This document shows, one piece after another, positions 13,001 to 58,383 of a DNA stretch of 64,000 bases (within the stretch, counting starts at the first letter, position 1; each line of letters opens with the position of its first letter). Where the stretch lies: IMG/VR virus record IMGVR_UViG_3300026097_000020, positions 3,520 through 67,519 of that record; one strand, written 5' to 3'. Origin of the DNA: a virus. The notes under the pieces are model-generated. The model was not told where the DNA came from. It was given only the letters and a program-made list of their open reading frames with translations, and ran no database searches. The translations under genes and the position numbers were made by a program.

Positions 13001-16000
13001 TCCAGAGCTACAGAGCAAAGACAGCAAGCCAGAAAAGACTTTAACGATCAGGCAGCAAAGAGTGCTCAGACTAATTCAGAATCAAAACGCACAAAAAGAA
13101 TTGCAAAAGATACAGTTGATGGATACGCTAATGAACTAAAGCGTGGAAAGAAAAAGGTACAGCAAACAGCTAAGGAAAAGGCTAAGCTAGAGCAGCAAAG
13201 CAAGGATCGTTTATATGGTGGGGCACAGCCAACACCACAAGAAAAAGCCGCTAGAAGACAAGCTGAGAAAAGAGCAAAGCAAGACGCTGCTCAGCAAAGA
13301 AGGACTGATCGTTTACGCAGAGAACAAAACCAACGAATGTATGGTACTCAAAACGTTACACCTGAAATGCGGGCCGCCAGGAAACAACAGGAAAATCTTG
13401 AAAAACAACGCAGGGCTACGCTTAAGCAGCAGCAGAAAAATAATCAGACTCAAACGAGAATTGTTAATCAGGAACAAGTAAATACAAAGAAGCTTAGTGT
13501 TGTAGAAAGACTTAAAGAAAGAGCTTTGCGTCGTCAACAGGCAAGACTTACTAGAGAGCAAGCAGTATCAGCACGAGCAGCCGCTGGAGGTGGGATGGGT
13601 GCTGGAAGAATGATGGGTGTTGGCATGGCCGCATCTTCTGCTGTAATGATGGGCTCGATGGCACCAGGAAAAGTTGGAGAGGTTGCCGGTAGTTTGATGG
13701 GGCCTGTCATGGCCTTGAGCATGGCTCTGCCAATGTTGACTAGCCCTATAGGCGTTGTGGTGGCTGCCCTTGGAGCATTGGGTGGTTCTCTTTGGTTCTT
13801 GAATAGTTCATTTAACAAGGGGGCCGAAGAGGGTATGAAGATGGCAGAGGCTTTTGGCGTGGGCTCCAAAGCGATAAAGTCGTTTGCTGAAAATGCAGGA
13901 AATGTTTCTGCTGGCGAAATTATGGATAAACGTAGAGAAGAAGCCGGTCAGATACTTAATATTCAGCCTGGCAAGTCTACCTTTGGAGAAACATTCTTAC
14001 AGGGCGATCCTGGAAAGGAAATGGTTGAAAACCTAAGAAAGACCTTTGAGAGTGGTCAATCTATGGGGGATGTCAGATCAGCTCTTATAAATCAAATGGG
14101 TACTGCAATTGCTACAGGTGCATTGTCCGCTGGTCAAGCCAGAAGCATTGTTGCAGAGTTGGCAGAAGAGATGGGGGACTATAACTTAGGCATTCAGGTA
14201 AACGGAGAATTACTTTCAATGTTTGGCCCCGACGGAGAAGATCTTTTAGAAAATCCCCTCGAGCTTAGAGTTAGACTTGTTGAAGAAAGCAGAGAGAATA
14301 TAAGAAGGATGGGTCAGCTTGTTTCCGAGCAGGGTCCAAGAACAGCTGGCAGAATAGGTGGAAACGTTGCTATTGGTGGTGGGGTTGGGGCAGCAGCTGG
14401 AGGGTTGGCTGCAACTCAAACAGGAATTGGAAATAGGATTGCCACTCAGCTTGCTGGAGGAATTGCCAAAATAGCTGCAAAGGCTGGTGCCCGAACAGCG
14501 GCCACAGCTGCCGCCGGAACTGCGGCTGGACCAATTGGAACAGCTATTGGTGCTGTTGCGGGAATTGGTTTGGGTATAGCAGACGCAGCAAAGTACATGA
14601 AAGACTTGGGTGTACTCACAGGAGGATTTGTCGCTAGTGGAGCCATGGCACTACAGCAACAGCAAGAGCTTTTAGACTCGTTGCAACTTGACTATGAAAA
14701 GAGAATTCAAATTGCAGATGCTGCTGGCGACACGGCAGAGGCAGAAAGATTGCAAAATCAATATATAGAAGATCGAGCAGCACTGTTAGAAGAAAATGCA
14801 AAAACGACTCAGGCATTCTTAGACACCTACTCAGAGTTTGACATTCTTTCAAAACGAGCTACTTCCGATAGTCTTTCAAAACAGCTTTCTTCACTTTACG
14901 AAGATCAACCATTGATGCAGGCCCAATTAGATTCTCTGGTCCAACAAATCGAGGGACTCGACTTTAACTTCTTTGCAGATTCCGAAAAAGAAATACAATT
15001 AAAGATGTCTCTTCTTTCTGGAGACTTAAGTCCAGGAGCTCTTTCAAGTCTTCTTAATTTAGATGACGACACGATTGACGTTGGCGTTAACCTGCTTGCC
15101 AAACTTGGTCAGGCTGAAGGCAATAGGGCTCTTTCATTAATGAGTATGTTTGTTGACAATGAGGGAAACCCAATAACAGAACAACAAACAAAATTCTTAG
15201 CTACAGTAGACGCAGCTCCATCAGGAGCGGAAGCTACCAAGTATCTAGACTTATTCCAGGAAATTCAAGAAATTGGTAACGTAGCCAATATGCAGATAGT
15301 TTTGGATTATTATTTAAATGATCCAAATGCAGCTTCACGGTTATCTGGTCAATTAAATGAAATTAGAAATATTGCAGCTCAAAACGAGGGTAGCTTAAGC
15401 ATAGACGTTTTCTCTAACGTTTTCGATGATCCAGAAGCGAGAGAAGCTTTGATGGATTATGCTGATGAATTTGATGCCCTTCCAGATTCTATGAAAATAG
15501 AGTTTATAGAGTCGTTTACAAAGCTTTACAATGTTGATGGTGATCCAGATGAGTTAGCGGCTTTTCGTGCAGAGGAGGGGTCAGATGCAACACGAGGAGA
15601 GTTTGATGTTTCTCGGGCAGATAGGCTGGTTAGAGGTGCTATGGCCGAGGGGGCGGCCTCCGATTTTGATGAGGAAACCGACACCGGCGGTGGAGGAGGC
15701 GGAGGACCACAGGCTTCTGAGCTAGATGACATTATCAAAAAACTAAGAGATGTAAGACTCGCTACTATCGATATGACAAAAGGATGGGAAGCATCTAGGG
15801 ATAAACTAGAAGAGCTTTTCGGAGACGGCAAAGACATCGATGTGTTTGATGGCCTAAAACAAAGAATGCGTGGCATGGGGCTAGGCGAAAATCTTATCGA
15901 TGTCATCGCCGGTATGCCAGCCGAAGAGTACGAAAGAAGAAAGAATCAACTATTTACATTTGACGAAGCTGGGAACATTACAGGTATTACAAAGACATTA

Positions 16001-19000
16001 GGCAATATGCAAAGAGCAATGAATGCCGTTGCATTAGGAGAATTCCACAATGAACAGCAGGCTGTATTAGCTGGATTAAATGATCAAATAGTTGCACATC
16101 GTAAACTTACTGCTGCTGGTTTAAGCAATGCTCAAGCATACGAAGCGGTAAAGAATAAAGCATTTGCAGCAGCAATAGCTAGAGAGCAAGACAATTCAAA
16201 GATTAAAGAGTCTATCAGGCTTATGGAAAAAGCTACAGAGGTTTCCAGAGCATACCAGGCAGCACAAGCTCTTGCTAGAAAAAATGAAGAAGTTGGAGAT
16301 TTGCGTGGGGTGGCAAGCTTTATACAAAAGAATGCAAAGTCTTTAAGCGAAGCACAAAAAGAAGCTATATTAAACGACAAAGATCTTCAAACTCTTGTTA
16401 TGAATCCAGAAGTAGATCCAAAGACTCTAAGACAAGCTTTAAAAAATGCAGAAAACCAGGCAGACCTAGATCTTAAAATCAAGAAGTTAACCTTTGATGG
16501 TTTGGTAGACGTTTTTAATGATGGATTTAATAATGCCATGGAAGCTTTTTCTGTAAAAGAAAAAGAAATTGAGCTAGATTTTGCTGTTAAAGAAGAGCCT
16601 TTCTTAGAAGCCATTAAAGATGCGGAAAGAGAAATTGCCGACATCAGAAATAGTGCTGGAGGTTTGGACGATCTTCAAGCGTCACTTGAAAGAATTTCTT
16701 GGCAAGAAGAAGAAATTAACGAAAAGTATGATCTTAGAACAGAAGCACTTGAAAAAGTTAAAGACATTAATAAAACAATTTCAGATCAACAAAAGTCTCA
16801 ACTAGACATTGCTGAAGCGTTGTCTCGTGGAGATATTGCAGCTGCCGCAAAGGCTGTTCAAGAATCTAGAAAACAAAGAGCTCAAGCAAGTCAGGCTAAG
16901 CAAGAAAAACAATTAGACATTGTTAGAGAAAAAGAGTTAGCTGCCCTAGTTGATGCAAGCGGTAGAAGTAGGCTAGAAATAGAAAAAGAAATTGAAAGAC
17001 TTAATCGAACAATTTTTGAAATTGAAGAACAAAGAATTGAACCTGCTCAAAGACAACTGGATATTCTTAATAGGCAAAAGCAGGACCTCATTGAGGGCCT
17101 TACTGTTTTGGGTAAAACAAGAGAAGAATGGGAGAGAGTAAAGAATAACGTTGACCTTGCCAGAATTAGTACTGACAAGTTTATTAAGTCAATGGAAGAT
17201 GCTTTAGATGTTGTTACAGACATTGTCGATTATTGGGACAACTTCCCCACAGAAAAACATGTTGACATTTTCCAAAATGTTAAGAGAATGGGCGAAGAAG
17301 AAGATGACTTGCCAGAAGCAGACGATGGACTGCTGGGTTCTAAAGATGGTCCAGGCGGAGGAACAGAAGAGGAAAAAGACAAAAAACTTTCAGTCGATGA
17401 CTCAAGGGCAAAGTTTAGAAGGCAAGAGTCTCTCGACATGGCTCGCTGGGAAGCTCAGCAAAGAGAACAGGAAGAAGACGCTACTCCACAATGGTTTGAT
17501 AAATTATTTACAGATTTTTCAATATTCCAACCAAAAGATGAAGACGGTAACAGAAGAACCGACTTAGAACCAAGAATCGGGTTTGATGTGGGGCAAGGCC
17601 CAACGTATGATGCAATTAAACCACTATTCACCAGGTTTGATGGTAAGGACGAACCAAGCTGGACAGAGAAAGCTCTCGATTGGTTAACCACCCCTCTTTG
17701 GGGCCCAGGTTCAAAAAATAGAGGATCTGGCTCACCAGTAGAAGAAACTTCAGCTTCCTCAAGACCACAAGTTCCCAGAACCTCAGATGGAAAAATTGAT
17801 TACGATCGACTGCCAGAACCTCAAACAGCCGGGTTTTCTTTGCCGGGACTTTCTCTGCCAGGATTTGGTAGCCCCTCCTCAAGTGCTATGCGTGGCTCAG
17901 GATCTCCAGCAGGTGGTGCACTCGGACCGATTAGAGGAGAAATAACCAAGCTTAATAGTGATATCCCAATGCTGCTTGCTGGGGTAGATAATCATTTTAG
18001 AACTCTACCAGAAAGAACTAATCAGCCCATTGTTGGGGGCGTAGGAAATAACTTTAGAACTTTGGGTTCAAGAACTCCCGAAAACCTATCTGGCATACCC
18101 AATTATCTCAAAGGTCCCCTAGCCTCTCAGGCTCAAGAGGGAATTAATTCTGGTATCAGGAATCCTCTACGTAGAACTGGCGACGAGTCTCCTTCTTACT
18201 TTACTCCACTTTCTCGATTCTTTACAACAGACTTGGTTAATTCTTCTAGCGAAGCAACTGGTAAAATTTTGCCGGACCATCTTAGTAGTCTGGGTAGAGA
18301 GGCCCCAGGTCGTCTAAATCCAATTACAGGATTCTTTGATAAGCTACCCGGTAAAGCGAAGCCCAGTATTGAAGGAGATTTAGTTGCCGCCTTTGAGGCA
18401 CTAGGAAATAACGCCCCCCTTGTGCTTGCTAAGATTACGCGGTATCTAACAGAGATGCCTTCTTTGCCATCTATTAGAGGAGCCATTGGTGTTCGACTTC
18501 CTCTACTCTTCCTTCAGGCAGGTCTTTCCTCTATTAGATTGTTTAAGATAATTGAGACTTACTTCAGGAGCCTACCCACAATCGTAAGAGGTCTTATTAA
18601 CGGAATTTCCTTTATGTTTTATTTAGAAGGGCGAGAGTCTGCAACAGCATTTATAAACGAGGTAAAGAGACAATTTAATAACTTTAAACCCGAAGTTACC
18701 ATTACCAGAAAAATCATAACAGTTTATGAGACTCAGACCAATGCTGGAGGATTGATTGGTAGCTACAACACTGGTGGTGCTGTTGCTGGCTTTAATAACG
18801 GTGGGGGGTATAGAGGTTTGCCAATGAGCAGAAAAGTTTCTGGTTCTGGAAACTACGATAAAGTAAAAACTCTTTTAACTCCAGGAGAATTTGTTATTAG
18901 AAAAGAAGCTGTAGAAAAATATGGTGACGGCCTGATGGCAGTGATTAATAGTGCCAAGTTACCAAGAGAAAGCTTTATGATGCCAACGTTTGAAAACGGT

Positions 19001-19186
19001 AGCTCCTCTTCGACCTCTTACAGAAACAATGTGGATGCACAAAAGAGCGGTGTCATGTATAATAGTAATAACTACGCAATTAATGTTAACGTAAGGTCTG
19101 AAGCCAATCCAGATCAAATTGCTAAAACAGTTATGAATAATATTAAGCGAGTCGATTCGCAAAGAATTAGGAGCAATAGGCTATAA
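10025..19186 (+). CDS. tape measure protein
   Basis: 3053 aa, Ala/Gly-rich and helical, TP901-type core, hydrophobic segments, two GSG..D.V..(M/L)LTPGE.VI motifs. Confidence 0.93.
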   Translation: MADANANIRIGVDTSAALAEIKNLQRQISLFHSSMAASGKAAADQSARMQANLMNSINATRGFTARMTTISTTTDSFTNALEKNKLSMGQYFRYAGGATKSFGSLFKSEFNTISKVARERVKDLQTQYIKMGRDADGAMKAIAVRPTTLDMKNLGTQTAIAAQKQQLFNQLIRQGSTNLLNWGKNTQWAGRQLMVGFTIPLTIFGTVAAKTFMDLEEQAIRFKRVYGDMFTTDTEVDEALAGVKELASEFTKFGVAVEDTIDLAASVAQMGAMGADLTNQVTQATRLAVLGGIEQQDALDTTISLTNAFGLATEELAGKIAFLNAAENQTILSIEDFNEAIPKAGSVVKQLGGDVEDLAFFLTAMREGGINASQSANALKSSLARLINPTEVAKEKMAGFGIDILGIVNDNAGNLRETIQVLAVELDKLDPLDKSRAIEQLFGKFQFARMSTLFENIVKEGSQANKILELTTNSTEELAIIAERELGRVSESPAYKFKKALEEIQVALAPIGEAFLKLATPIIEFGTRVMDQFNNLSDGAKTFVVGLTAVLGVVAPAVLMVIGLVANGIANLVKFGQLVARAFGSSRTSSNNLTEQLNYMNAEQVESAAIAASLEQAHSRLTQEFTAEAGAVNKLTAAYTRAIEKQKLMMMSGPGAARTGGRVGAKVKGYNKGVVSVPGSGNKDTVPAMLTPGESVIPAEMTKRYAPLIEAMVAGAIPGYNRGRNPYQRSHITGQLDPNDPNVFSQLQAMYPGTSAAQLQNFEVLSDLTMDLPEWMNQDLRPKSGGIAPDQFDFSSKQTKNKLLATSKSAAQDMGLELGDEYLSGLSQGFEDEITDRASSLARQRGVNVTDPILSEAREEVLEKARKQGGSRGLLAEGLQRKATTVGSTRAALGGQEDAKLRKMLERGEAKVVRGTGGGLSVFSANADGSQGPKIGRFSGGSSDPELQKWFNEGADPKKLPPKYKMRGSSSTPRAGTYETRTRMANTPGGISSRATEQRQQARKDFNDQAAKSAQTNSESKRTKRIAKDTVDGYANELKRGKKKVQQTAKEKAKLEQQSKDRLYGGAQPTPQEKAARRQAEKRAKQDAAQQRRTDRLRREQNQRMYGTQNVTPEMRAARKQQENLEKQRRATLKQQQKNNQTQTRIVNQEQVNTKKLSVVERLKERALRRQQARLTREQAVSARAAAGGGMGAGRMMGVGMAASSAVMMGSMAPGKVGEVAGSLMGPVMALSMALPMLTSPIGVVVAALGALGGSLWFLNSSFNKGAEEGMKMAEAFGVGSKAIKSFAENAGNVSAGEIMDKRREEAGQILNIQPGKSTFGETFLQGDPGKEMVENLRKTFESGQSMGDVRSALINQMGTAIATGALSAGQARSIVAELAEEMGDYNLGIQVNGELLSMFGPDGEDLLENPLELRVRLVEESRENIRRMGQLVSEQGPRTAGRIGGNVAIGGGVGAAAGGLAATQTGIGNRIATQLAGGIAKIAAKAGARTAATAAAGTAAGPIGTAIGAVAGIGLGIADAAKYMKDLGVLTGGFVASGAMALQQQQELLDSLQLDYEKRIQIADAAGDTAEAERLQNQYIEDRAALLEENAKTTQAFLDTYSEFDILSKRATSDSLSKQLSSLYEDQPLMQAQLDSLVQQIEGLDFNFFADSEKEIQLKMSLLSGDLSPGALSSLLNLDDDTIDVGVNLLAKLGQAEGNRALSLMSMFVDNEGNPITEQQTKFLATVDAAPSGAEATKYLDLFQEIQEIGNVANMQIVLDYYLNDPNAASRLSGQLNEIRNIAAQNEGSLSIDVFSNVFDDPEAREALMDYADEFDALPDSMKIEFIESFTKLYNVDGDPDELAAFRAEEGSDATRGEFDVSRADRLVRGAMAEGAASDFDEETDTGGGGGGGPQASELDDIIKKLRDVRLATIDMTKGWEASRDKLEELFGDGKDIDVFDGLKQRMRGMGLGENLIDVIAGMPAEEYERRKNQLFTFDEAGNITGITKTLGNMQRAMNAVALGEFHNEQQAVLAGLNDQIVAHRKLTAAGLSNAQAYEAVKNKAFAAAIAREQDNSKIKESIRLMEKATEVSRAYQAAQALARKNEEVGDLRGVASFIQKNAKSLSEAQKEAILNDKDLQTLVMNPEVDPKTLRQALKNAENQADLDLKIKKLTFDGLVDVFNDGFNNAMEAFSVKEKEIELDFAVKEEPFLEAIKDAEREIADIRNSAGGLDDLQASLERISWQEEEINEKYDLRTEALEKVKDINKTISDQQKSQLDIAEALSRGDIAAAAKAVQESRKQRAQASQAKQEKQLDIVREKELAALVDASGRSRLEIEKEIERLNRTIFEIEEQRIEPAQRQLDILNRQKQDLIEGLTVLGKTREEWERVKNNVDLARISTDKFIKSMEDALDVVTDIVDYWDNFPTEKHVDIFQNVKRMGEEEDDLPEADDGLLGSKDGPGGGTEEEKDKKLSVDDSRAKFRRQESLDMARWEAQQREQEEDATPQWFDKLFTDFSIFQPKDEDGNRRTDLEPRIGFDVGQGPTYDAIKPLFTRFDGKDEPSWTEKALDWLTTPLWGPGSKNRGSGSPVEETSASSRPQVPRTSDGKIDYDRLPEPQTAGFSLPGLSLPGFGSPSSSAMRGSGSPAGGALGPIRGEITKLNSDIPMLLAGVDNHFRTLPERTNQPIVGGVGNNFRTLGSRTPENLSGIPNYLKGPLASQAQEGINSGIRNPLRRTGDESPSYFTPLSRFFTTDLVNSSSEATGKILPDHLSSLGREAPGRLNPITGFFDKLPGKAKPSIEGDLVAAFEALGNNAPLVLAKITRYLTEMPSLPSIRGAIGVRLPLLFLQAGLSSIRLFKIIETYFRSLPTIVRGLINGISFMFYLEGRESATAFINEVKRQFNNFKPEVTITRKIITVYETQTNAGGLIGSYNTGGAVAGFNNGGGYRGLPMSRKVSGSGNYDKVKTLLTPGEFVIRKEAVEKYGDGLMAVINSAKLPRESFMMPTFENGSSSSTSYRNNVDAQKSGVMYNSNNYAINVNVRSEANPDQIAKTVMNNIKRVDSQRIRSNRL

Positions 19187-19848
19187 TGGCAGAACTAAGC
19201 TACATGGTTGGAAGAAAAGCCTATGCCAGACCTCAGGGTATTTTGCTAGCAAATAATTCTGGCTATATTTCACAAGGCAAAAGAATTCCAGAAGGTAATG
19301 AATTTGAAGATTTTATTATTCTTTCTGATGATAATCGAGGACCAATTAATTTTGCTATAAACAGACTTGAACGTAGAGAAAGAACTGTCAATGGAAGAAT
19401 GAGATCTTATCATATTGCAGACAAGCTTGACATCTCTGTAAGCTGGGAAATGCTTCCTTCTAGAGGATTTTCTGTTCAACCTAATTTTCAAGATGCTCTC
19501 CAAGCAAGTCCCGGTAGCGTAACAAATCTTGTAGAAACAACTGTAATAGAGGGCACCACTAGGCCAGTAAGTCCTTTTGGATCACCTTATTACCAAGATC
19601 AACAATACACTTCGGACGGCGGTGTAGGCGGTGTAGAGATACTTGATTGGTATGAGACTTATACAGGATCTTTTTGGGCTTTTTTATCGTACGACAATTA
19701 TAAAGATTTGGATGGAGATAGAAACAGGTTGTCAGAATATTCTGAAGTGGTAGAGGTTTTCTTTTCCTCATTTGACTATTCTGTTGAAAAAAGAGGCGGT
19801 TCTAATTTTGACTTTTGGAATATTAGTTTTAGCTTGGAAGAGGTTTAA
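19186..19848 (+). CDS. distal tail (Dit)-like protein
   Basis: Immediately after the tape measure; motif RTVNGRMR and C-terminal WNISFSLEEV. Confidence 0.7.
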   Translation: MAELSYMVGRKAYARPQGILLANNSGYISQGKRIPEGNEFEDFIILSDDNRGPINFAINRLERRERTVNGRMRSYHIADKLDISVSWEMLPSRGFSVQPNFQDALQASPGSVTNLVETTVIEGTTRPVSPFGSPYYQDQQYTSDGGVGGVEILDWYETYTGSFWAFLSYDNYKDLDGDRNRLSEYSEVVEVFFSSFDYSVEKRGGSNFDFWNISFSLEEV

Positions 19849-22800
19849 TGTTTGTTAATGAAGAGCTACAGGAGCACTTAGAGACATCATCCAGAATCAA
19901 AAGCCGTTCTGCAATTGTCGCAGAGTGGAATATGAACATGTCAAAAAATATTTTTTATGCTGGTAATTATCGATACCGTCCAAATGATCCAGACTTTCCA
20001 GAGTATAATTTTATTGCTCAATCCTTTAGCACGCTAGACGAAACAAACAGGTTTTATACAGATGCTACTGACGCAGACATATTGATTGATGGCGGATTAG
20101 AAGATAACGAAATCCCCACAGCTTTCGCTTCTGATCAGGAAAAAGAAAGAATGCTTTATTCTTTAGAAGATTGTTTCGGCAGATTTCGTCCACGTTCTGG
20201 TATTAATAAGTTGAGATGGTTTGAAAACAGATATACTCATTTTTCAAATATTGACATGGTCAGCAGACCAAGATATTACATGTCTGATAAATTAGATAAT
20301 TTTAAGTATTGGACCTCTTACAGAAAAGAAAACGGGGTAGAGCGAGGTATTGCAAACAATAATTTAAATGGTCAAAACTTCATTCAGGATGCTGCACCAT
20401 TCGTAGTTTACAAAGATCCTGTACCAGCAAACAGAGTAGTAGTAAAAATGCAGACTCATGTCGGCAATATTGATTTAGGACCTTTTGTTAAAGATGACAA
20501 CCTTGTATCGGACCCATTCTTCGGAGAAGAAAATCAAGCAACTCCCGTGAGTTGGAAAATTCAAAAAATGGATATTTCTAGAAACTGGGTAGACATTGCT
20601 TCGTTTGATGAAAACTCTGAAAGATCTGATGGGTCTTCAGTAATTGGTCCAGATGGATATGTGGAGCTTGTTTATGGACTTATTATTCCTCCGGCTTATA
20701 AGCCAGGATTTGAATTGGTAAAAGAGTATTCTTCTGCAAGCTTGTTACCATCTCCAATTAGTCTTCCAAATAATACCGCTTACTTAATTAGAGAAAACAC
20801 AGACGATGCAGGAATTGTTTATGTCGTTCGTAATAACTCTCAAAAAACTCAAGGAGTATTTGTAACCTTTAATGCAGAGTACGGATGGACATTAATAGAA
20901 GAGCTTGGATCAGATACAGGTTTTGTAACAGAGCTCACCAATCCTCCAGCATTTAGAGATTTATCCAACGGGCTAACCAGATACAGAGAGTTTGAATACA
21001 TTTACGGTTTAAGAGTTGTTGTGGAAACAATGAATGTCTTTGATTCAACTTTTGATTTAATAGAACTTTCTCCCAGACTTTCTTCTAATATTTCAAACAT
21101 GGTTAGAACTTTTAACATTACAAAAACTGCTTCAGATTTAGGCAATGCCGGACTACCAGTTGGACAACTTTTAGCGTCAGTTGGATCCCTGGACATCTTT
21201 GACACAGAACAAGCATTCTTTCCAGAAAATACTAACAGCATCATAAAAGATTATACTGATCAAAATATTCAAATTAAAATTTATGAAGTTATTGAAGAGG
21301 TAAATAATAATTCTTATTTTGTACCTATTAAAACAATGTATTCAGAAGGCTTCCCAACTATTCAGTCAGATCAAAAAAATATTTCGCTTCAGCTTAGAGA
21401 CTTGTTTTTCTACATGGAATCAATTATGGCTCCACAGATCTTAATACAAAATGCATCACTTAGTTATGCTGTTTCGTTATTGTTAGACTCTGTTGGATTT
21501 AGCAACTATACTTTTCAAAGACTTCGCAATGAGGATGAAGAGATCATTCCTCATTTTTATGTTCCGCCAGATATTTCGGTAGCAGAGGTATTAAACAATA
21601 TTGCAGTCTCTACACAATCGGCAATGTTCTTTGACGAGTTCAATAATCTTGTCGTAATGAGTAGAGACTATTATTTGCCTACCAATAACGAAAGACCTTC
21701 AGATATTACCCTTAGAGGTTCTGTAGATTTTCAGCAAACTGATGTTTTAAAAAATGAAAAGACAAAAAGTAAGCTAGCTAACATTGTAGATATTTCATTT
21801 AGAAACAATCAGGTTTTTAATGACGGAGTAATCAAGTATCAAACAAGAGCTATTCAAAGATCTTATAGTTCAATTAGACAGGCATCTTTGTTAGATAAAG
21901 ACAAAACTTGGATCTATAAGCCAGCATTGCTTTGGGAGGTTAGCGGTACGGAAGCAACAAAATCTGTAAACGAAGAGGGATCCAATCAATCTTCATATGT
22001 TTTATCGGCAATACCCTTAAACTCAAATTTAAGCACAAGGGTACCATCGGTTATTAATCATCGTTTAGCAAACAATACAATTGATTTTGGCGACGGAGTC
22101 TACTGGATCGCTCGATACGAAGGGTACTTTTATGCAAATGGAGAAATGATAAAGTATGATGCCGTACAATATAATATTCCAGGCATTAGTGCTATAGAAA
22201 GAGAAGACCCTAACGTAATAGATGACAATGTGTGGATTTCAAGTGTTGAAGAGTATCAGAAATATTTTGCTAAAATTCCTTTTAATGGAAAAATGTACCC
22301 AACTGGATTAGTAAGAATCTATGCGGAACCAAACTACGAGATCGTAGGTGGGCAAACAAGGATGGTAAATGGCCCTGTCGCCAAACATGGAAGAGCTCAG
22401 TTTGGAACAAATGTCGTAGAGCATCAGGCAGGGGTATCTAGCTATTGGACAGATAGAGACAACATTCGGGGATGCTCTATGGAATCTAAATACATTTTTG
22501 ACGAGTCAATCAGAAGACTAGTTTATACGAGAAGCTCCTTAATTTCTAACGACGAAAACGCTGTAATTGAAGTTGCCGATGCAACCACTGCTCGTGTAGG
22601 AGATTATGTAGAAAAATTCTTTAATCCATCTTTTTCTTTTTTGGAAGAGGATCAGGAAACTAACATTAATCTAATACCGGAAAACACCAGAATTATTTCG
22701 GTAGATGTTGATGATAATACGATCACATTAGATAAAACAATCTCTGCAGTTTCGGATGAGGATTTTGTAGAAATAGTAGAACTTAACAATTGCACCTTAA

Positions 22801-24770
22801 TATCTAATGGAAGCAATGCAGTTATCGAAGTTCAGGACACCGCAGATCTAGAGGTCGGCCTCTACATTAAAAATTCTTTTTCAGATCCTAACGACAACAT
22901 CGTTCCAGAAAATACGCAAATTGTTTCTATTGACTCTGGAAATAACAGAGTAACCATAAGTAATTCTCTTGAGTCGCCAAATACCGAGTTTTCAGAAAAT
23001 ATCAATCTTTCAGCGGGAAGGATAATTTTTAACTCTTTGATACTTATTGAAAAAGCACCAGACTCTGTAGTTGGAAAAGCGGGAATTGAAAATAGTGTAG
23101 TTCAAAATACTTCGGTAACCGGATTAATAAAAAATATTTTTAGTGATACTTATACAGAAGAGGTTTCAAAAGACCCATACTACCCAGGAAGCCTGCAAGC
23201 CTCAGCTTTGGTAATGAAAGGTAATACGGTCAATACCTCAGAAGATCCAAAAAACTTTTTGTCATACGTTTATAAACCCCTAGACGGTCGATTTAAGCAT
23301 TTTGGGACAAGAGCTAGAATTATTGGCAGAATAGAAAACAGTGAGACTAGGGGGCAGACCCCAGACGGAAGTTCTGTTTATTATATTCCAGAACAAACAG
23401 AAACGGGTCAGTCTTCTTCAATTTCTGGTGGATCTGGTGGGCTGGCTGTAATGGTCAATCCAGAAACAAATGCTGGGTATTACTTTGAAATAGCCGCATT
23501 GACTGAAAACAATTTATCAGCATACACGGTTGATGGAGAAATCTATAATGTTTATTTTTATAGAGTAGATAGAAACGCAAATGCAACCAATGATGTTGAA
23601 AAAGCAATTCCTAAAAGATTGTTTGGCGGTATCGCAGAAATAAACGTAGATGATGGAAGCTTCGTGGGGCAGTCAAGAATGACAAACGAAGACACTACTA
23701 CCGTTTATGACTTAGCTGTTGAATATGAAGATGTGGATAACATTAGAAGATTCTATTTGTACTTAAACAATCAGATAGTAGGAATTGTAGATGATGAAAA
23801 TCCTTTACCAATATACAACAACATGTCTCTTTTTGTCAGAGGTAATGCAAAGATTATGTTTGAAAATGTCTACGCACTTTCAGAAAACTATAGCCAAAAC
23901 ACGACATTTGATCTTCCAAGAGAAGAAGGGCTGGCAAATCAACTAAGAGAATCCATTTTTGGAGTGGAAGACTTGACTGCAAATAATGCCTTCCGAAAGT
24001 ATGTTGTTAGTGGATTTATCCAATCATCATATTTAAGAGGGATAAGCTCATCCGAACCACCTAAATACAATATTTATTATGAAGAGTTCGGCACCATTAT
24101 GAGAGAAGCTTCCTACTTCGATATTAGATACAATAAGGCGTATCCAGCTCTAGCCGCTCAGATATCTCCAACAGTCAATAGGATTAAAGGCTACACAGTG
24201 TCCGGATTTTTGGCTGGGGCTTACGGGGCAGAGTTTTTAATATTTAATCATACAGATACAGCGTTAAGTCTGGATTCTTCTAGCGGCAACTATTTAAGAA
24301 TTCAAGGGGTTACCTTTACTCAACAAGCAAATCATGAGCTCACTGTTGACCAGTACTTTCAAAAAAAATCTAACTTTGCAGATCCTAAATTTATCTCGAA
24401 CTCATTTGTGGAATCTCCAGTAGATGCTAAAAAAGAATATCAGGATATTAAGTTGACCAGAATTAGCGAAGGTAAAAAAGACTTTTCTGTAGAGGCACCT
24501 TACATTCAAACTCAAGCACATGCAGAAAGATTGATGGATTGGTTAACTGATAAAATTATGAAACCCAGAAAGTCTGTTGGAGTAAGAATTTTTCCAATGC
24601 CAACTCTTCAGTTGGGGGATATCGTGCAAATTGATTATCTTAATAAAAATAATTTTTATGAAGTTTCTAATCCAGAGGACAAGTTCGTGATCTATAGCAT
24701 TTCGTATTCTAAAGATTCTAGCGGTCCCAGTATGGAATTGTTTTTAAGTGAGGTGAGCGATGGTATCTGA
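19848..24770 (+). CDS. large baseplate hub / tail tip protein
   Basis: 1640 aa after Dit; C-terminal APYIQT..AERL...LQLGDIV hub signature; internal tandem domain duplication. Confidence 0.7.
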   Translation: MFVNEELQEHLETSSRIKSRSAIVAEWNMNMSKNIFYAGNYRYRPNDPDFPEYNFIAQSFSTLDETNRFYTDATDADILIDGGLEDNEIPTAFASDQEKERMLYSLEDCFGRFRPRSGINKLRWFENRYTHFSNIDMVSRPRYYMSDKLDNFKYWTSYRKENGVERGIANNNLNGQNFIQDAAPFVVYKDPVPANRVVVKMQTHVGNIDLGPFVKDDNLVSDPFFGEENQATPVSWKIQKMDISRNWVDIASFDENSERSDGSSVIGPDGYVELVYGLIIPPAYKPGFELVKEYSSASLLPSPISLPNNTAYLIRENTDDAGIVYVVRNNSQKTQGVFVTFNAEYGWTLIEELGSDTGFVTELTNPPAFRDLSNGLTRYREFEYIYGLRVVVETMNVFDSTFDLIELSPRLSSNISNMVRTFNITKTASDLGNAGLPVGQLLASVGSLDIFDTEQAFFPENTNSIIKDYTDQNIQIKIYEVIEEVNNNSYFVPIKTMYSEGFPTIQSDQKNISLQLRDLFFYMESIMAPQILIQNASLSYAVSLLLDSVGFSNYTFQRLRNEDEEIIPHFYVPPDISVAEVLNNIAVSTQSAMFFDEFNNLVVMSRDYYLPTNNERPSDITLRGSVDFQQTDVLKNEKTKSKLANIVDISFRNNQVFNDGVIKYQTRAIQRSYSSIRQASLLDKDKTWIYKPALLWEVSGTEATKSVNEEGSNQSSYVLSAIPLNSNLSTRVPSVINHRLANNTIDFGDGVYWIARYEGYFYANGEMIKYDAVQYNIPGISAIEREDPNVIDDNVWISSVEEYQKYFAKIPFNGKMYPTGLVRIYAEPNYEIVGGQTRMVNGPVAKHGRAQFGTNVVEHQAGVSSYWTDRDNIRGCSMESKYIFDESIRRLVYTRSSLISNDENAVIEVADATTARVGDYVEKFFNPSFSFLEEDQETNINLIPENTRIISVDVDDNTITLDKTISAVSDEDFVEIVELNNCTLISNGSNAVIEVQDTADLEVGLYIKNSFSDPNDNIVPENTQIVSIDSGNNRVTISNSLESPNTEFSENINLSAGRIIFNSLILIEKAPDSVVGKAGIENSVVQNTSVTGLIKNIFSDTYTEEVSKDPYYPGSLQASALVMKGNTVNTSEDPKNFLSYVYKPLDGRFKHFGTRARIIGRIENSETRGQTPDGSSVYYIPEQTETGQSSSISGGSGGLAVMVNPETNAGYYFEIAALTENNLSAYTVDGEIYNVYFYRVDRNANATNDVEKAIPKRLFGGIAEINVDDGSFVGQSRMTNEDTTTVYDLAVEYEDVDNIRRFYLYLNNQIVGIVDDENPLPIYNNMSLFVRGNAKIMFENVYALSENYSQNTTFDLPREEGLANQLRESIFGVEDLTANNAFRKYVVSGFIQSSYLRGISSSEPPKYNIYYEEFGTIMREASYFDIRYNKAYPALAAQISPTVNRIKGYTVSGFLAGAYGAEFLIFNHTDTALSLDSSSGNYLRIQGVTFTQQANHELTVDQYFQKKSNFADPKFISNSFVESPVDAKKEYQDIKLTRISEGKKDFSVEAPYIQTQAHAERLMDWLTDKIMKPRKSVGVRIFPMPTLQLGDIVQIDYLNKNNFYEVSNPEDKFVIYSISYSKDSSGPSMELFLSEVSDGI

Positions 24771-47430: not shown

Positions 47431-47865
47431 ATGAAGTCTGAAAACATGGCAGAATACATGAAAGCCAGAAGGTTAAAGAGAAGGCAAGAGCTTCTTGTTT
47501 TGGCGGGTAGCAAGTGTAATATATGCAAAGCCACAGATAACCTAGAGTTTAATCACATAGATAGATCAACAAAGCTAATAACCTTAAGCGGTAAAGGCTT
47601 AGATGGCAAATGGGATAAAATTCTTGAGGAGCTTGACAAGTGCGAGCTTTTGTGCAATAATTGTCACTTAGAAAAAACCAAAGAGCAGTATAAAAATAAA
47701 GAAATAAGACCTTGGAATGACAAAAAACATTTGCCATACTTGCACGGCACAACAAGGTCTTATGAAGAAATAGCTTGTAGGTGTAAAGATTGTAGATATG
47801 CTAAAAAATTATATAGAGACAAAGTTGTTGGCTATTCAGAAATAGTTAATAATAGTGGAGCGTAA
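47431..47865 (+). CDS. HNH endonuclease (probable homing endonuclease)
   Basis: CNIC...LEFNH...CELLCNNCH plus C-terminal HGT..SY...CRC.DC zinc module; TGTTATAAT at 47416-47424, 6 nt before ATG. Confidence 0.85.
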   Translation: MKSENMAEYMKARRLKRRQELLVLAGSKCNICKATDNLEFNHIDRSTKLITLSGKGLDGKWDKILEELDKCELLCNNCHLEKTKEQYKNKEIRPWNDKKHLPYLHGTTRSYEEIACRCKDCRYAKKLYRDKVVGYSEIVNNSGA

Positions 47866-47927
47866 CTCAGCGGTAGAGTGGGATGCTGTTAACATCTTGG
47901 TCGCAAGTTCGAATCTTGCCGCTCCAG
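47856..47927 (+). tRNA. tRNA-Asn(GTT)
   Basis: Cloverleaf TGGAGCG/CGCTCCA, anticodon loop CT-GTT-AA, TTCGAAT T loop. Confidence 0.93.
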
Positions 47928-47928
47928 C

Positions 47929-47999
47929 GGGGATATAGTTTAATGGTAAAACGAGAGTCTTCCAAACTTTCGATGGGAGTTCGATTCTCCCTATCCCCT
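47929..47999 (+). tRNA. tRNA-Gly(TCC)
   Basis: GGGGATA/TATCCCC acceptor, loop CT-TCC-AA, discriminator T. Confidence 0.93.
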
Positions 48000-48001
48000 C
48001 T

Positions 48002-48138
48002 CGGATTAGCATTCTGAACAAATGCTATGAAGATTGTGTATCCGAAAGATTGTTCCAGCGGTAGAGAGAAGATGTTCAGATCGATGAACTCTATGACTAT
48101 GCGAGAACTAGGATATACAGCTAGTGGTAGGTAATCCG
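48002..48138 (+). ncRNA. putative structured ncRNA with loop-loop pseudoknot, family unknown
   Basis: Closing stem CGGATTA/TAATCCG, several internal stems and an 8-bp TCTGAACA/TGTTCAGA loop-loop pairing; fills the gap between two tRNAs. Confidence 0.6.
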
Positions 48139-48168
48139 TAATCAAACGGCGATACACGACTGGCACAA

Positions 48169-48241
48169 GGCCCGTTAGCTTAGCGGTTAAAGCACCTGCC
48201 TGTCGAGCAGGGGATCGTCGGTTCAAATCCGATACGGGTCG
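48169..48241 (+). tRNA. tRNA-Asp(GTC)
   Basis: GGCCCGT/ACGGGTC acceptor, loop CT-GTC-GA, discriminator G. Confidence 0.93.
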
Positions 48242-48273
48242 CAAATTATTAAAAAATGTGATAGACTATACTT

Positions 48274-48336
48274 ATGAGGGCAAACATGAAAAACACCAAT
48301 GCACGCTTTAGCCTTTTCTTTTATTGGCGATATTAA
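48274..48336 (+). CDS. putative leaderless 20-aa peptide MRANMKNTNARFSLFFYWRY
   Basis: TGATAGACT extended -10 at 48259-48267, 6 nt before ATG, the same geometry as other leaderless genes here. Confidence 0.4.
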   Translation: MRANMKNTNARFSLFFYWRY

Positions 48337-48378
48337 TATCGTAGAGCATTCGCTCATTTAAACAATAAAATTAAACAT

Positions 48379-48452
48379 GTAGCATTGGTGTAATGGTAGC
48401 ACAAGAGCTTCCAAACCTCTTGGTGTGGGTTCGATTCCTACATGCCGCGCCA
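48379..48452 (+). tRNA. tRNA-Trp(CCA)
   Basis: Cloverleaf with loop TT-CCA-AA, G73 and encoded CCA; mismatches at 3:70 (A-C) and 31:39 (C-C). Confidence 0.8.
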
Positions 48453-48453
48453 C

Positions 48454-48530
48454 CCCACGGCTGCTGGGACAGAGACGGGACTGTAAATCCTGTGCCGTTG
48501 GCTAGCGAGGTTCGATTCCTCGACGTGGGA
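48454..48530 (+). tRNA. tRNA-Tyr(GTA), atypical
   Basis: Loop CT-GTA-AA, variable arm GCC-GTT-GGC, canonical T arm, A73; C1-G72 pair and an unusual D arm. Confidence 0.8.
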
Positions 48531-48534
48531 CAAC

Positions 48535-48563
48535 TTGACTGACAGACATTGATCGGCTATACT
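48535..48563 (+). promoter_or_regulatory. sigma70-type promoter for tRNA-Thr
   Basis: TTGACT-17 nt-TATACT. Confidence 0.75.
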
Positions 48564-48571
48564 TGTCTAGT

Positions 48572-48645
48572 GCCTCCTTAGCTCAGTTGGCCAGAGCACC
48601 GCTCTTGTAAAGCGGGGGTCGTCAGTTCGAATCTGACAGGGGGCC
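48572..48645 (+). tRNA. tRNA-Thr(TGT)
   Basis: GCCTCCT/AGGGGGC acceptor, loop CT-TGT-AA. Confidence 0.93.
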
Positions 48646-48660
48646 CGAAGAAAGGAAGGC

Positions 48661-48903
48661 ATGGAAATAAATTTATTTAATTACTACGGACTTGATTGGC
48701 TATCTATGCTTCTTGGCTTTTTGGGTATGTGGCTACTTGGCAAGCGGCATAAGGTAGGGTTTATCTTTACAGGCCTAGGTATGATTTCTGCTCTTATCGT
48801 TGCCCTATTGGCAAGTCAGTATGGGTTCATGGTGGCCAACTTTATTATGATTATTCTTTCAGCAAGAAACTATATACTGTGGAAGGTTGAAGAAAACATA
48901 TAA
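48661..48903 (+). CDS. small 3-TM membrane protein (PnuC/SemiSWEET-like half transporter)
   Basis: Three hydrophobic helices, DW...G.WL.G....GF...YG......N....W pattern; AAGGA RBS. Confidence 0.6.
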   Translation: MEINLFNYYGLDWLSMLLGFLGMWLLGKRHKVGFIFTGLGMISALIVALLASQYGFMVANFIMIILSARNYILWKVEENI

Positions 48904-48978
48904 GCCTCTGTAGCTCAGCGGAAGAGCAAAAGGTTTCTACCCTTTGTGTCGCAGGTTCGATTCCTGTCAGAGGCTCCA
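48904..48978 (+). tRNA. tRNA-Arg(TCT)
   Basis: GCCTCTG/CAGAGGC acceptor, loop TT-TCT-AC, A20, encoded CCA. Confidence 0.93.
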
Positions 48979-48979
48979 C

Positions 48980-49008
48980 TTGACAACTTTTATTGTAAAG
49001 GGTAAACT
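48980..49008 (+). promoter_or_regulatory. sigma70-type promoter for tRNA-Ile
   Basis: TTGACA-17 nt-TAAACT. Confidence 0.75.
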
Positions 49009-49045
49009 GTTTATGTACCAATTAATATTTAACTAGTGGGGACTG

Positions 49046-49118
49046 CCCCCATTAGCTCATTGGTTAGAGCAGCACTCTTATAAAGTGTTGGCAACGGGTT
49101 CAATTCCCGTATGGGGGA
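49046..49118 (+). tRNA. tRNA-Ile(TAT)
   Basis: CCCCCAT/ATGGGGG acceptor, loop CT-TAT-AA, A73. Confidence 0.88.
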
Positions 49119-49131
49119 CAAAAGGAGAAAA

Positions 49132-49629
49132 ATGAAAACAGCATGTCTAATTGATCTTGCAAACAAAAATATCACAATTGAGGGTGAACACGAAGCAAAA
49201 CGTTTAATTATTGATTTTATTGTTGTTGGTGAAGAGGGCGAGAAGTATGATTTTAAACAAGTTAATTTTGGATATCAGCTTCAAAAAAACAATGACGAAA
49301 TTGTAGAAGAATCTTGGCCAATTCCCGGTATCAAGTTTGGAAAACTTGCTCCAGGTATTATAACTAGTGCAGATATCAAGCTAGAGGTTGATACAGATTA
49401 TAAGCTGCTTGTGTGGTATACCCGTGATATTTATCGTCATAGTGATATTAAAATATTTAACAGCGGTCGGCCCTATAAGGCTTATGACTCTATGATTTGG
49501 AACGAAGAAGCTGAAGAATGGGACATGCTTAAGCCATACCCCGAGGGTTCCACAGAGCCAATGATTTGGAATGAAGACAAGCTAGAGTGGGAAGTTTTTA
49601 ATTTTGGAGAGGATAGCAATGAAGATTGA
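49132..49629 (+). CDS. hypothetical protein with duplicated C-terminal MIWNE...EW motif
   Basis: AAGGAG RBS supports ATG 49132; the ORF-track start 49111 lies inside tRNA-Ile. Confidence 0.65.
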   Translation: MKTACLIDLANKNITIEGEHEAKRLIIDFIVVGEEGEKYDFKQVNFGYQLQKNNDEIVEESWPIPGIKFGKLAPGIITSADIKLEVDTDYKLLVWYTRDIYRHSDIKIFNSGRPYKAYDSMIWNEEAEEWDMLKPYPEGSTEPMIWNEDKLEWEVFNFGEDSNED

Positions 49630-58129: not shown

Positions 58130-58140
58130 ATTGCATTTAG

Positions 58141-58383
58141 TGGACGTGAGGGGAATCGAACCCCTGTCCAGATCTTTCTCCAATGAGCTTCTACATGTTT
58201 AGGTCTTCGACCAGATATTGCGATACTGCTATATAGTTATGGTATTGCTATTTTGCTATAAACTAAGCCGCTAGGGCAAATTGATTTTGTTTTGCATTTA
58301 TTAGTTTGCCACCGATTAAGGCACGGTAGCCCTACCACATGCTTCCTCATCATTGATACGACCTGTCGAAACCAGGCACGCCC
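58141..58383 (-). ncRNA. ssrA: tmRNA (transfer-messenger RNA), reduced, 243 nt
   Basis: GGGCGTG/CACGTCC-A acceptor with G3-U70, GGTTTCGAC 5' motif, T arm GGGGTTCGATTCCCC, pk1, tag ORF AKQNQFALAA* at 58295-58263; promoter TGTTATAAT at 58390-58398. Confidence 0.92.

What the first reader, a model, noticed from the sequence alone, without database searches (positions are those of the whole stretch)
48002..48157. Unexplained ~137-nt pseudoknotted RNA between tRNA-Gly and tRNA-Asp
Seen by manual pairing: P1 CGGATTA(48002-08)/TAATCCG(48132-38); P2 GCATT/AATGC closing loop CTGAACA; P3 TGTGTATCC(48035-43)/GGATATACA(48111-19); P4 GTTC/GAAC; P5 GTAGAG(48061-66)/CTCTAT(48089-94). The P5 loop holds TGTTCAGA(48073-80), an 8-nt perfect complement of TCTGAACA(48013-20), giving a kissing-loop pseudoknot. 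GATACAC(48151-57) can alternatively pair with GTGTATC in P3, suggesting a switch. It starts 3 nt after tRNA-Gly, so tRNA processing would release it. It is not a cloverleaf, and I could not fit it to hammerhead or HDV/theta consensus. Inference: a possibly undescribed phage ncRNA (ribozyme, decoy or protein-binding RNA).
Basis: partly seen in the sequence, partly recalled or inferred. Interest (0 to 1): 0.8.

Follow-up and report, generated by a model that had tools for sequence, protein, structure and literature searches.

The report
New folded RNA in phage tRNA array
The gap between two tRNA genes of this uncultured phage holds a real, conserved gene for a folded RNA of about 165 bases that matches no catalogued RNA family; it carries two unchanging hairpin tips that fit each other, and its job is still unknown.

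Summary
Window 48001-48168 (+) is a genuine non-coding RNA gene. I found 15 distinct copies: the window, 12 IMG/VR contigs and 2 metagenome contigs (52-99% pairwise identity). Each fills a "tRNA slot", 0-3 nt from a tRNA on either side. A 44-pair nested fold is strongly supported: with the 6-pair kiss added, 95.6% of cells pair, 21 pairs show compensatory changes, and 0 of 500 shuffles reach this.

His closing helix P1 and his "switch" are not conserved. He missed a 3' hairpin domain and a 3-bp stem that shortens the kiss from 8 to 6 nt. The two loops, CUGAAC and GUUCAG, are nearly invariant. The only change is C to U, giving U.G. The kiss is therefore plausible but unproven, and it could form within one molecule or between molecules.

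There is no Rfam 15 match, no match in cultured phages and no homology to T4 rnaC/rnaD. Most likely it is a stable RNA cut out of the tRNA transcript by tRNA-processing enzymes. Its function is unknown. The boldest reading still open is self-assembly, as in manA, ROOL and GOLLD.

This scan had already flagged the same family on another genome (e1-6047922, e1-6047899).

The parts
47929..48000 (+). tRNA-Gly(UCC), the upstream neighbour. After its discriminator comes C and then the element's invariant UC.
   Evidence: ARAGORN; Rfam tRNA 72 bits; junction table for all 15 copies
48001..48168 (+). The whole structured RNA unit (168 nt), filling the gap between the two tRNA genes
   Evidence: CM R1 hit at 165.2 bits covering model positions 1-173; 15-sequence alignment A3
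48001..48033 (+).
   Evidence: 7 of 8 H1 pairs show compensatory changes and 96.7% of cells pair; coordinates
48014..48020 (+). H1 apical loop CUGAACA; kissing partner 1 (CUGAAC)
   Evidence: 6 of 7 loop columns are invariant in 15 sequences; the one change is C to U in L163
48036..48118 (+). Central arm: P3 (48036-43/48111-18), P4 (48052-55/48105-08), GCG/UGC (48058-60/48100-02), P5 (48062-67/48088-93), P5b (48071-73/48080-82)
   Evidence: The variable P3 pair occurs as G.U, A-U, U-A and G-C. P4, P5 and P5b each have compensatory pairs, and 3 of 3 P5b pairs covary
48074..48079 (+). P5b apical loop GUUCAG; kissing partner 2
   Evidence: 6 of 6 columns are invariant in 15 sequences; duplex CUGAAC/GUUCAG is -5.6 kcal/mol
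48120..48164 (+). Domain 3: hairpin H3 (GCUAGUGGUA ...
   Evidence: 10 pairs, 5 with compensatory changes, 98.7% of cells paired
48165..48168 (+). Short 3' tail (ACAA). It would also be the 5' leader of the next tRNA, so RNase P cleavage would define the RNA's 3' end (inference).
   Evidence: Junction table
48169..48242 (+). tRNA-Asp(GUC), the downstream neighbour
   Evidence: ARAGORN; Rfam tRNA 67.9 bits

Best explanation
This is a gene for a stable, trans-acting structured RNA of about 165 nt that occupies a 'tRNA slot' in the phage's tRNA operon.

Shown: the gene is conserved in 15 distinct copies. It always abuts tRNA genes on the same strand. It folds into three helical domains whose stems covary, while two apical loops (CUGAAC and GUUCAG) and several junction motifs stay fixed.

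Inferred: it has no room for signals of its own, so it is co-transcribed with the tRNAs. It is then cut free by the host's tRNA-maturation enzymes. RNase P cutting at the 5' end of the downstream tRNA makes its 3' end. 3' trimming of the upstream tRNA, which has no encoded CCA, makes its 5' end. The two complementary loops then pair and lock the RNA into a compact, nuclease-resistant particle.

The released particle would act in the infected cell as a binding partner or decoy rather than as a cis signal, because it moves between slots next to different tRNAs. What it binds is unknown.
For: Real RNA gene: the consensus fold has 40 pairs, 23 of them with compensatory changes (RNAalifold). My refined 50-pair structure gives 95.6% of cells paired and 21 compensatory pairs. 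0 of 500 shuffles reach it, and structures slid by 1-3 columns pair in only 26-41% of cells.

Strand: G.U pairs lie on the tRNA strand, and the + strand has z -2.85 against -1.39 for the - strand.

tRNA slot: ARAGORN calls a tRNA directly upstream in 15 of 15 copies (Gly 6, Asp 7, Met 1, Asn 1). It calls one directly downstream in 14 of 15 (Thr 6, Asp 4, Arg, Gly, Ser, Leu). The gaps are 0-3 nt. The fifteenth copy (L118) is followed by a tRNA-like sequence that ARAGORN did not call.

Copy number: one copy in each of 5 whole viral records, one of them rated 100% complete.

Loops: 12 of 13 loop columns are invariant, against 56 of 177 columns overall and 71% mean pairwise identity. 10 of the 15 copies were found with queries that did not demand the loop sequences.

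Precedent: T4 species I and II RNAs (rnaC, rnaD) abut tRNA-Arg. They are made from the same primary transcript as the eight T4 tRNAs (PMC2330249, passages read).
Against: No expression data exist: no RNA run holds the stretch.

The loop-loop pairing has no compensatory change, so the invariance could equally reflect binding of another partner.

The promoter and terminator scan around the array is no better than shuffles: 7 sites against 6.2 expected.

No RNA-partner protein is evident in the window: no TROVE/Ro60, and nothing RNA-specific among the 28 ORFs scanned against Pfam.

The 12 main-group copies all lie next to tRNA-Asp, on one side or the other (for L118 the neighbour is read from the sequence). 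This leaves some room for a cis role.

The 15 sequences fall into about 6 clades, so the number of independent compensatory events is smaller than the cell counts suggest.
Confidence: 0.5

Rival explanations
1. RNA-only self-assembly. The two complementary loops pair between molecules, not within one. Loop 1 of one copy binds loop 2 of the next, which builds closed dimers, rings, cages or filaments, as shown for manA, ROOL and GOLLD.
For: One RNA carries two different, mutually complementary, near-invariant apical loops at the ends of two separate arms. [quoted passage not shown] Kissing loops first read as tertiary contacts in those RNAs turned out to be intermolecular bridges (PMC12286853, passages read). 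manA RNAs under 200 nt form 8-, 10- and 60-mers through intermolecular kissing loops (bioRxiv 10.64898/2026.07.01.735769, abstract and sections 7-8 read). My own estimate of helix lengths (inference, no tool): a coaxial H1-kiss-P5b-P5-P4 stack would be much longer than P3 and its short linkers can span. An intramolecular kiss would therefore need sharp bends.
Against: The several asymmetric internal loops could supply the bends an intramolecular kiss needs. A 6-bp kiss (-5.6 kcal/mol as a free duplex) is a single weak interface, whereas the manA pentamers use two or three interfaces. There is no sequence or model similarity to manA, ROOL or GOLLD.
Confidence: 0.25
2. Cis-acting processing element. 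It could be a structured spacer that directs or insulates cleavage of the neighbouring tRNAs. It could instead be a new self-cleaving ribozyme that trims the upstream tRNA's 3' trailer, as proposed for theta ribozymes.
For: It starts right after the discriminator plus C of a tRNA without CCA in 14 of 15 copies, with one extra G in L163. That is the position theta ribozymes take (PMC10879173, passages read). The junction motifs are conserved (AGAU, CCGAAA, ACUAGGAUA).
Against: The upstream tRNA differs among copies (Gly, Asp, Met, Asn) and so does the downstream one. The other tRNAs of the same arrays do without such an element. No ribozyme family matches even at E<=10. The fold is three serial hairpin domains, not the nested double pseudoknot that defines HDV-like ribozymes. 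The CAGCGGUAG/AUGCGAG core of the main group is replaced by other sequence in L156, L157 and L163, which is unlike a catalytic core.
Confidence: 0.1
3. tRNA-related mimic or binder. H1, with its 7-nt loop C-U-G-A-A-C-A, imitates an anticodon arm (U at position 2, GAA = Phe anticodon) and acts as a decoy for an anticodon nuclease or modification enzyme. Alternatively the GUUCAG loop (UUC codon plus purine) captures tRNA-Phe.
For: The loop size and the U at position 2 are invariant. None of the arrays examined carries a tRNA-Phe: 0 of 15 element-bearing loci and 0 of 78 other ThyX-related loci scanned, 43 of which hold three or more tRNAs. Phage tRNAs that neutralise defence nucleases are known (PMC11464382, seen only as title and abstract in the search listing).
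Against: The H1 stem has 8-9 bp rather than 5. Position 37 is C or U, not a purine. tRNA-Phe is equally absent from relatives without the element, so that count says nothing. There is no T arm and no acceptor stem, and neither ARAGORN nor the Rfam tRNA model calls it. The reading rests on a resemblance that I recalled, not on a test.
Confidence: 0.07
4. Not an RNA at all: a conserved DNA site, such as a homing or recombination target linked to the HNH endonuclease gene next to the array.
For: An HNH endonuclease gene (47431-47865; phrog_4234, E 7.5e-29) lies just upstream of the array. This parallels segB in the T4 tRNA cluster (PMC2330249).
Against: Compensatory changes preserve RNA pairs, including strand-specific G.U pairs. 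I did not look for an HNH gene beside the other 14 copies, so any link between the HNH gene and the element was not tested.
Confidence: 0.03

Closest known systems
Phage T4 species 1 and species 2 RNAs (rnaC, 139 nt; rnaD, 119 nt)
   Same: Small non-tRNA RNA genes embedded in a phage tRNA cluster and abutting a tRNA: rnaD starts 1 nt after tRNA-Arg. They are part of the same primary transcript as the tRNAs (PMC2330249). Their function is unknown (recalled). A homing endonuclease gene lies in or beside both arrays.
   Different: No homology: CM R1 finds nothing in the T4 tRNA region. T4 rnaC ends in a canonical T arm (CCGGGUUCGAAUCCCGG) and a 5'/3' acceptor-like stem. This RNA has neither, and its ends do not pair with each other.
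manA RNA motif (Rfam RF01745; accession taken from scan notes e1-3436071 and e1-6047899)
   Same: A phage RNA under 200 nt with several hairpin loops that pair loop to loop (bioRxiv 10.64898/2026.07.01.735769, sections 7-8). According to an earlier, unchecked scan note, manA also occurs between phage tRNA genes (e1-3436071).
   Different: No match to the Rfam library, which holds the manA model, even at E<=10. The fold is different. Oligomerisation is shown for manA and is only a possibility here.
ROOL and GOLLD RNAs
   Same: Phage and prophage RNAs 'often near tRNA islands', of unknown function, held together by kissing loops (PMC12286853).
   Different: They are 500-800+ nt with many domains, and this RNA is about 165 nt. 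There is no Rfam match. Cage formation is shown for them and untested here.
Theta (minimal HDV-like) ribozymes next to phage tRNAs
   Same: They sit directly 3' of a phage tRNA and have been proposed to process the tRNA 3' trailer (PMC10879173).
   Different: Their defining nested double pseudoknot is absent. This RNA is about three times longer (the size of theta ribozymes is recalled). It is also followed directly by another tRNA. No HDV-type model matches.
YrlA / bacterial Y RNAs
   Same: Structured RNAs found beside tRNA genes in some phages (recalled; also in scan note e1-5466733).
   Different: The weak YrlA match (29.3 bits against a 69-bit cutoff) lies on tRNA-Asn and tRNA-Gly, not on the element. 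There is no closing 5'/3' stem, and the record has no Ro60/TROVE gene.

Membership tests
Any Rfam 15 family (4227 models, including manA, ROOL, GOLLD, HDV-like, hammerhead, twister, pistol, hatchet, YrlA, tmRNA, tRNA) | Match to the family covariance model | tested here: not met
   No match overlaps 48001-48168, either at gathering score over the whole window or at E<=10 with permissive filters on 47800-49300.
tRNA | Cloverleaf with an acceptor stem formed by the 5' and 3' ends, and a T arm with the GUUCRA loop | tested here: not met
Not called by ARAGORN or by the Rfam tRNA model. The GUUCAG loop has 6 nt closed by a 3-bp stem.
HDV-like / theta ribozymes | Nested double pseudoknot whose P1 starts at the first nucleotide after the cleavage site | tested here: not met
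   The consensus fold is three serial hairpin domains. Only 2 nt of the 5' end pair, with GA at 48032-33. No HDV-type model matches. The defining feature is taken from PMC10879173.
HDV-like / theta ribozymes | Self-cleavage | not testable with these tools
   Needs an in-vitro cleavage assay.
T4 rnaC / rnaD | Sequence and structure homology to the T4 RNAs | tested here: not met
   CM R1 gave no hit in L164, the T4 region 69000-74000. The T4 rnaC fold has a T arm that is absent here.
T4 rnaC / rnaD (as a functional kind: stable RNA of a phage tRNA operon) | Gene inside the tRNA cluster, on the same strand, abutting tRNAs | tested here: met
   15 of 15 copies abut a tRNA upstream and 14 of 15 abut one downstream, by ARAGORN. 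T4 layout.
T4 rnaC / rnaD (as a functional kind) | Accumulates as a discrete stable RNA | not testable with these tools
   No RNA run holds the stretch. Needs a Northern blot or small-RNA-seq.
Self-assembling phage RNAs (manA, ROOL, GOLLD) | Homo-oligomer held by intermolecular loop-loop contacts | not testable with these tools
   Complementary invariant loops are present, but cis and trans pairing cannot be told apart by sequence.
Y RNA / YrlA | Ro60-binding stem formed by the 5' and 3' ends, with an rsr (TROVE) gene in the genome | tested here: not met
   No TROVE match in the 67.5-kb record, which is rated 62% complete. No conserved terminal stem.

The most novel reading that the evidence does not exclude
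The RNA is a new, very small member of the emerging class of phage RNAs that build RNA-only quaternary structures. Its two invariant, mutually complementary loops pair between molecules, head to tail. This would produce rings, cages or filaments in the infected cell, made from a transcript that tRNA-processing enzymes cut out of the tRNA operon.
Probability: 0.25. Interest if true: 0.8.

Novelty: new variant of a known kind. Interest (0 to 1): 0.55.

Why it matters
Phage tRNA clusters have been known for some fifty years (recalled) to carry extra stable RNAs, T4 species 1 and 2, whose function was never found. ROOL, GOLLD and manA have now been shown to self-assemble through kissing loops, and ROOL and GOLLD are noted to lie often near tRNA islands.

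This family adds a compact example of about 165 nt with strong covariation, a simple three-arm fold and just one candidate loop-loop contact. That makes it a tractable test case. One in-vitro transcript and two loop mutants would show whether such tRNA-slot RNAs are monomeric particles or building blocks of assemblies.

The family also gives annotators a model for a gap that is otherwise left blank in uncultured phage genomes of roughly 95-110 kb.

Tried and rejected
Searches that led nowhere:
- The 172-aa neighbour (49111-49629) has no relatives in viral contigs.
- An exact pattern built from the two loops with their window-specific flanks gave 0 hits.
- Of the 80 ThyX-related loci, only 1 (L072) holds the element, both by blastn/nhmmer and by CM.
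- The genome-contig scan gave 24 stretches, and 0 are homologs by nhmmer.
- The metagenome scan gave 38 stretches, of which 5 are homologs. 3 of those 5 duplicate IMG/VR copies.
- One search was wasted. I set the second gap to 30-60 when the true gap is 28-29. It returned 2 stretches, and neither is a homolog.
- Chance pattern hits were discarded after reading them or by nhmmer/CM: L083, L084, L087, L090, L154, L155, L161.
- Two weak CM hits (L029, L025; E 0.55 and 0.63) lie on the strand opposite the tRNAs and are not flanked by tRNAs. I rejected them as chance.
- blastn of three family members against 50,697 cultured-phage records found only the tRNA parts (40 of 67 rows seen) or nothing.

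Expression: no RNA holder is listed. All laid runs were contigs, and the two runs labelled RNA-Seq are marked 'probably DNA'. Nothing can be said about transcription.

One search did show one 1415-letter contig of run X23 that covers 48092-48163. Its loose end reads a variant of the P5b hairpin with loop AUUCAG. The partner loop was not visible, so this remains a lead only.

This blocked my plan to enlarge the family through neighbours of the M23 peptidase (1036 relatives).

Considered and rejected:
- A protein-coding reading. The only ORFs across the element also run through tRNA genes, and homologs differ by indels that are not multiples of three.
- A tRNA-Phe replacement. tRNA-Phe is absent whether or not the element is present.
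- A Ro60 partner.

Literature: searches found no description of this family. Fremin et al. 2023 (PMC10690425; abstract and passages read) list 8495 candidate structured RNAs from IMG/VR in supplementary tables.

Full report
**What is at the site.** The window is an uncultured-virus record of 67.5 kb, rated 62% complete. It carries a portal gene, DnaE-type polymerase, RecA, NrdI, ribonucleotide reductase large and small subunits, ThyX and a tmRNA gene. ARAGORN finds eight tRNA genes at 47856-49119 on the + strand. tRNA-Gly ends at 48000 and tRNA-Asp starts at 48169. The 168-nt gap folds better than shuffles on the + strand (-47.5 kcal/mol, z -2.85, 2 of 200 shuffles as good). It does not on the - strand (z -1.39). 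No Rfam 15 family matches inside 48001-48168, at gathering score or at E<=10.

**Homologs.** blastn against 50,697 cultured-phage records hit only the flanking tRNAs. Queries from two other family members found nothing. Among 80 loci fetched through the neighbouring ThyX gene, only L072 carries the element. Four motif-pattern scans of IMG/VR and one of the metagenome collection found the rest. Each hit was checked by reading it, by nhmmer and by a covariance model. The result is 15 distinct sequences: the window, 12 IMG/VR contigs and 2 metagenome contigs. Three further loci are identical duplicates. Pairwise identity is 52-99%, mean 71%. The genome-contig scan gave 24 stretches and none is a homolog. 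One scan was lost to a gap I set wrongly. Ten of the fifteen copies came from queries that did not specify the two loop sequences. Five (L156-L160) came from a pattern that did.

**Genomic setting.** In 15 of 15 copies a tRNA gene on the same strand ends 0-1 nt before the element: Gly 6, Asp 7, Met 1, Asn 1. In 14 of 15 another tRNA begins 0-3 nt after it: Thr 6, Asp 4, and Arg, Gly, Ser, Leu once each. The fifteenth copy (L118) is followed by a tRNA-like sequence that ARAGORN does not call. After the upstream tRNA's discriminator comes C and then the element's invariant UC, with one extra G in L163. No CCA is encoded. Five whole viral records, one of them rated 100% complete at 109.6 kb, hold exactly one strong copy each. 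There is no room for a promoter or terminator at either junction. The consensus scan of the array is no better than shuffles. Its best promoter-like site (47633-47661, 11 of 12 matches, TG-extended) lies upstream of the first tRNA.

**Structure.** RNAalifold on the 15-sequence alignment gives 40 pairs, 23 of them with compensatory changes. I refined this to 50 pairs, including the proposed kiss, and counted them. 95.6% of 747 cells pair and 21 pairs have changes on both sides. 0 of 500 shuffles reach any of the five measures. Structures slid by 1-3 columns pair in only 26-41% of cells.

The fold has three domains (coordinates):
- Domain 1 is a 2-bp clamp UC/GA (48001-02 with 48032-33) plus hairpin H1 (48006-13 with 48021-28) and the 7-nt loop CUGAACA. 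7 of its 8 pairs covary.
- The central arm has P3 (48036-43 with 48111-18), a large asymmetric internal loop starting CCGAAA, and P4 (48052-55 with 48105-08). Then come a conserved GCG/UGC, P5 (48062-67 with 48088-93) and a 3-bp stem P5b (48071-73 with 48080-82) closing the 6-nt loop GUUCAG. In P3 the one variable pair occurs as G.U, A-U, U-A and G-C. P4 occurs as GUUC/GAAC, GUCC/GGAC and other variants. All 3 pairs of P5b covary.
- Domain 3 is hairpin H3 (48120-48164), with 5 of 10 pairs covarying, followed by a 2-4 nt tail.

G.U pairs on the tRNA strand fix the orientation. In the divergent subgroup (L156, L157, L163) the CAGCGGUAG/AUGCGAG core of the main group is replaced by other sequence that still pairs.

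P2 (H1), P3, P4 and P5 are right. P1 (CGGATTA/TAATCCG) is specific to the window. Across the family 46% of cells pair, and 110 of 500 shuffles do as well. Its 3' half belongs to H3. The 'switch' (GATACAC with GTGTATC) pairs in 76% of cells but has no compensatory change. It breaks in 7 of 15 sequences exactly where P3 itself covaries. That sequence is the 3' strand of H3. The 8-nt kiss shrinks to 6 nt, because its outer U and A form the covarying P5b stem.

**The kiss.** CUGAAC and GUUCAG are complementary in all 15 sequences. Five pairs never vary, and one changes C to U (L163), giving U.G. Loop columns are invariant in 12 of 13 cases, against 56 of 177 columns overall. This fits a loop-loop helix (-5.6 kcal/mol as a free duplex) but does not prove one. 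A pair that never varies says nothing, and five sequences were selected for having these loops. A contig in one public run shows a relative with loop AUUCAG, but its partner loop was not visible.

**How it most likely works.**
- Shown: the conserved gene, the fold, the strand and the tRNA-slot position.
- Inferred from established tRNA biology: the RNA is co-transcribed with the tRNAs. RNase P cleavage at the downstream tRNA sets its 3' end. 3' maturation of the upstream tRNA, which lacks CCA, sets its 5' end.
- Inferred: the loops pair and give a compact stable particle that acts in trans. The element sits next to different tRNAs in different phages, which argues against a role tied to one tRNA. 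It is not excluded, because all 12 main-group copies lie next to tRNA-Asp.

I put 0.5 on this reading with an intramolecular kiss and an unknown binding partner.

**Rivals.**
1. Intermolecular kissing and self-assembly (0.25). ROOL and GOLLD are phage RNAs 'often near tRNA islands'. Contacts first read as tertiary kissing loops in them proved to be quaternary bridges (PMC12286853, passages). manA RNAs under 200 nt form 8-, 10- and 60-mers through intermolecular kissing loops (bioRxiv 10.64898/2026.07.01.735769, abstract and sections 7-8). My rough count of helix lengths (inference only) suggests an intramolecular kiss needs sharp bends, which the asymmetric internal loops could supply.
2. Cis processing element or new ribozyme (0.1). 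The position matches that of theta ribozymes (PMC10879173, passages). Against it, there is no nested double pseudoknot, no ribozyme model match, the neighbouring tRNAs vary, and the core is not universal.
3. Anticodon-arm mimic or tRNA-Phe binder (0.07). This is a recalled resemblance only, and the absence of tRNA-Phe is uninformative.
4. A DNA site linked to the adjacent HNH endonuclease (0.03). Strand-specific RNA covariation contradicts it.

**Comparison with what is known.** The closest in kind are T4 rnaC and rnaD. They abut tRNA-Arg in the T4 cluster and come from the same primary transcript as the tRNAs (PMC2330249, passages). They are not homologs: the CM finds nothing in the T4 region. 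T4 rnaC has a canonical T arm and an end-to-end stem, both absent here. manA, ROOL, GOLLD, theta ribozymes and YrlA all fail the model-match test, and the record has no Ro60 gene. Seven literature searches found no description of this family. The supplementary candidate lists of PMC10690425 could not be opened and might include it.

**Earlier notes of this scan.** The same family was flagged before on the genome that holds my locus L160 (e1-6047922, e1-6047899), and probably on another (e1-3436071, which shares words with the L072 copy). Several notes describe other kissing-loop RNAs in phage tRNA arrays, also with T4 rnaC/rnaD as the nearest known (e1-5913105, e1-6111994, e1-6030512). These are unchecked AI notes. 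I took from them the lead to manA and the 2026 preprint, which I then read myself. I tested the L160 copy and the T4 comparison here.

**Verdict.** This is a real, uncatalogued structured RNA family of phage tRNA arrays. It is a new variant of a known kind, the stable non-tRNA RNAs of phage tRNA operons. Interest is 0.55. The boldest reading the evidence leaves open is an RNA-only assembly (probability 0.25).

Noticed in passing
window 58138-58383 (-): A phage-encoded tmRNA gene (Rfam 112.4 bits). ARAGORN reads the tag peptide as AKQNQFALAA.
   Followed up: no
window 47431-47865 (+): An HNH endonuclease gene (phrog_4234, E 7.5e-29; no Pfam hit) lies directly upstream of the tRNA array. This recalls the homing endonuclease segB inside the T4 tRNA cluster.
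   Followed up: partly
window 48661-48903 (+): An 80-aa ORF inside the tRNA array, between tRNA-Thr and tRNA-Arg, has a weak match to the N-terminal part of the NMN transporter PnuC. The Pfam score is 23.8 bits, below the 27.3 cutoff, and phrog_2421 (unknown function) also matches.
   Followed up: partly
Contigs of relatives cover it with many substitutions.
   Followed up: no
L072:834-1018; L066:6347-6478 and 6551-6689; L071:6507-6696 and 6769-6930; L023:5240-5429; L039:7179-7345: Other gaps of 130-190 nt between same-strand tRNA genes in related phage contigs. They may hold further non-tRNA RNAs or promoters. None matches model R1.
   Followed up: partly
L118:1-251 (-); L003:1104-1242: tRNA-Asp-like genes with an unusual T loop (GGUGUCGGAAUCC or GGUGUCAGGAUCC) that ARAGORN missed. 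A similar one after the element in L162 was called tRNA-Asp.
   Followed up: no
window 48092-48163, contig of run X23: A 1415-letter public contig carries a more distant relative of the element whose P5b loop reads AUUCAG instead of GUUCAG. Its H1 loop was not visible. This is the one lead that could test the kiss by covariation.
   Followed up: partly
window 10025-19186 and 19848-24770 (+): Two very long ORFs (3053 aa and 1640 aa) in the structural module; not examined.
   Followed up: no
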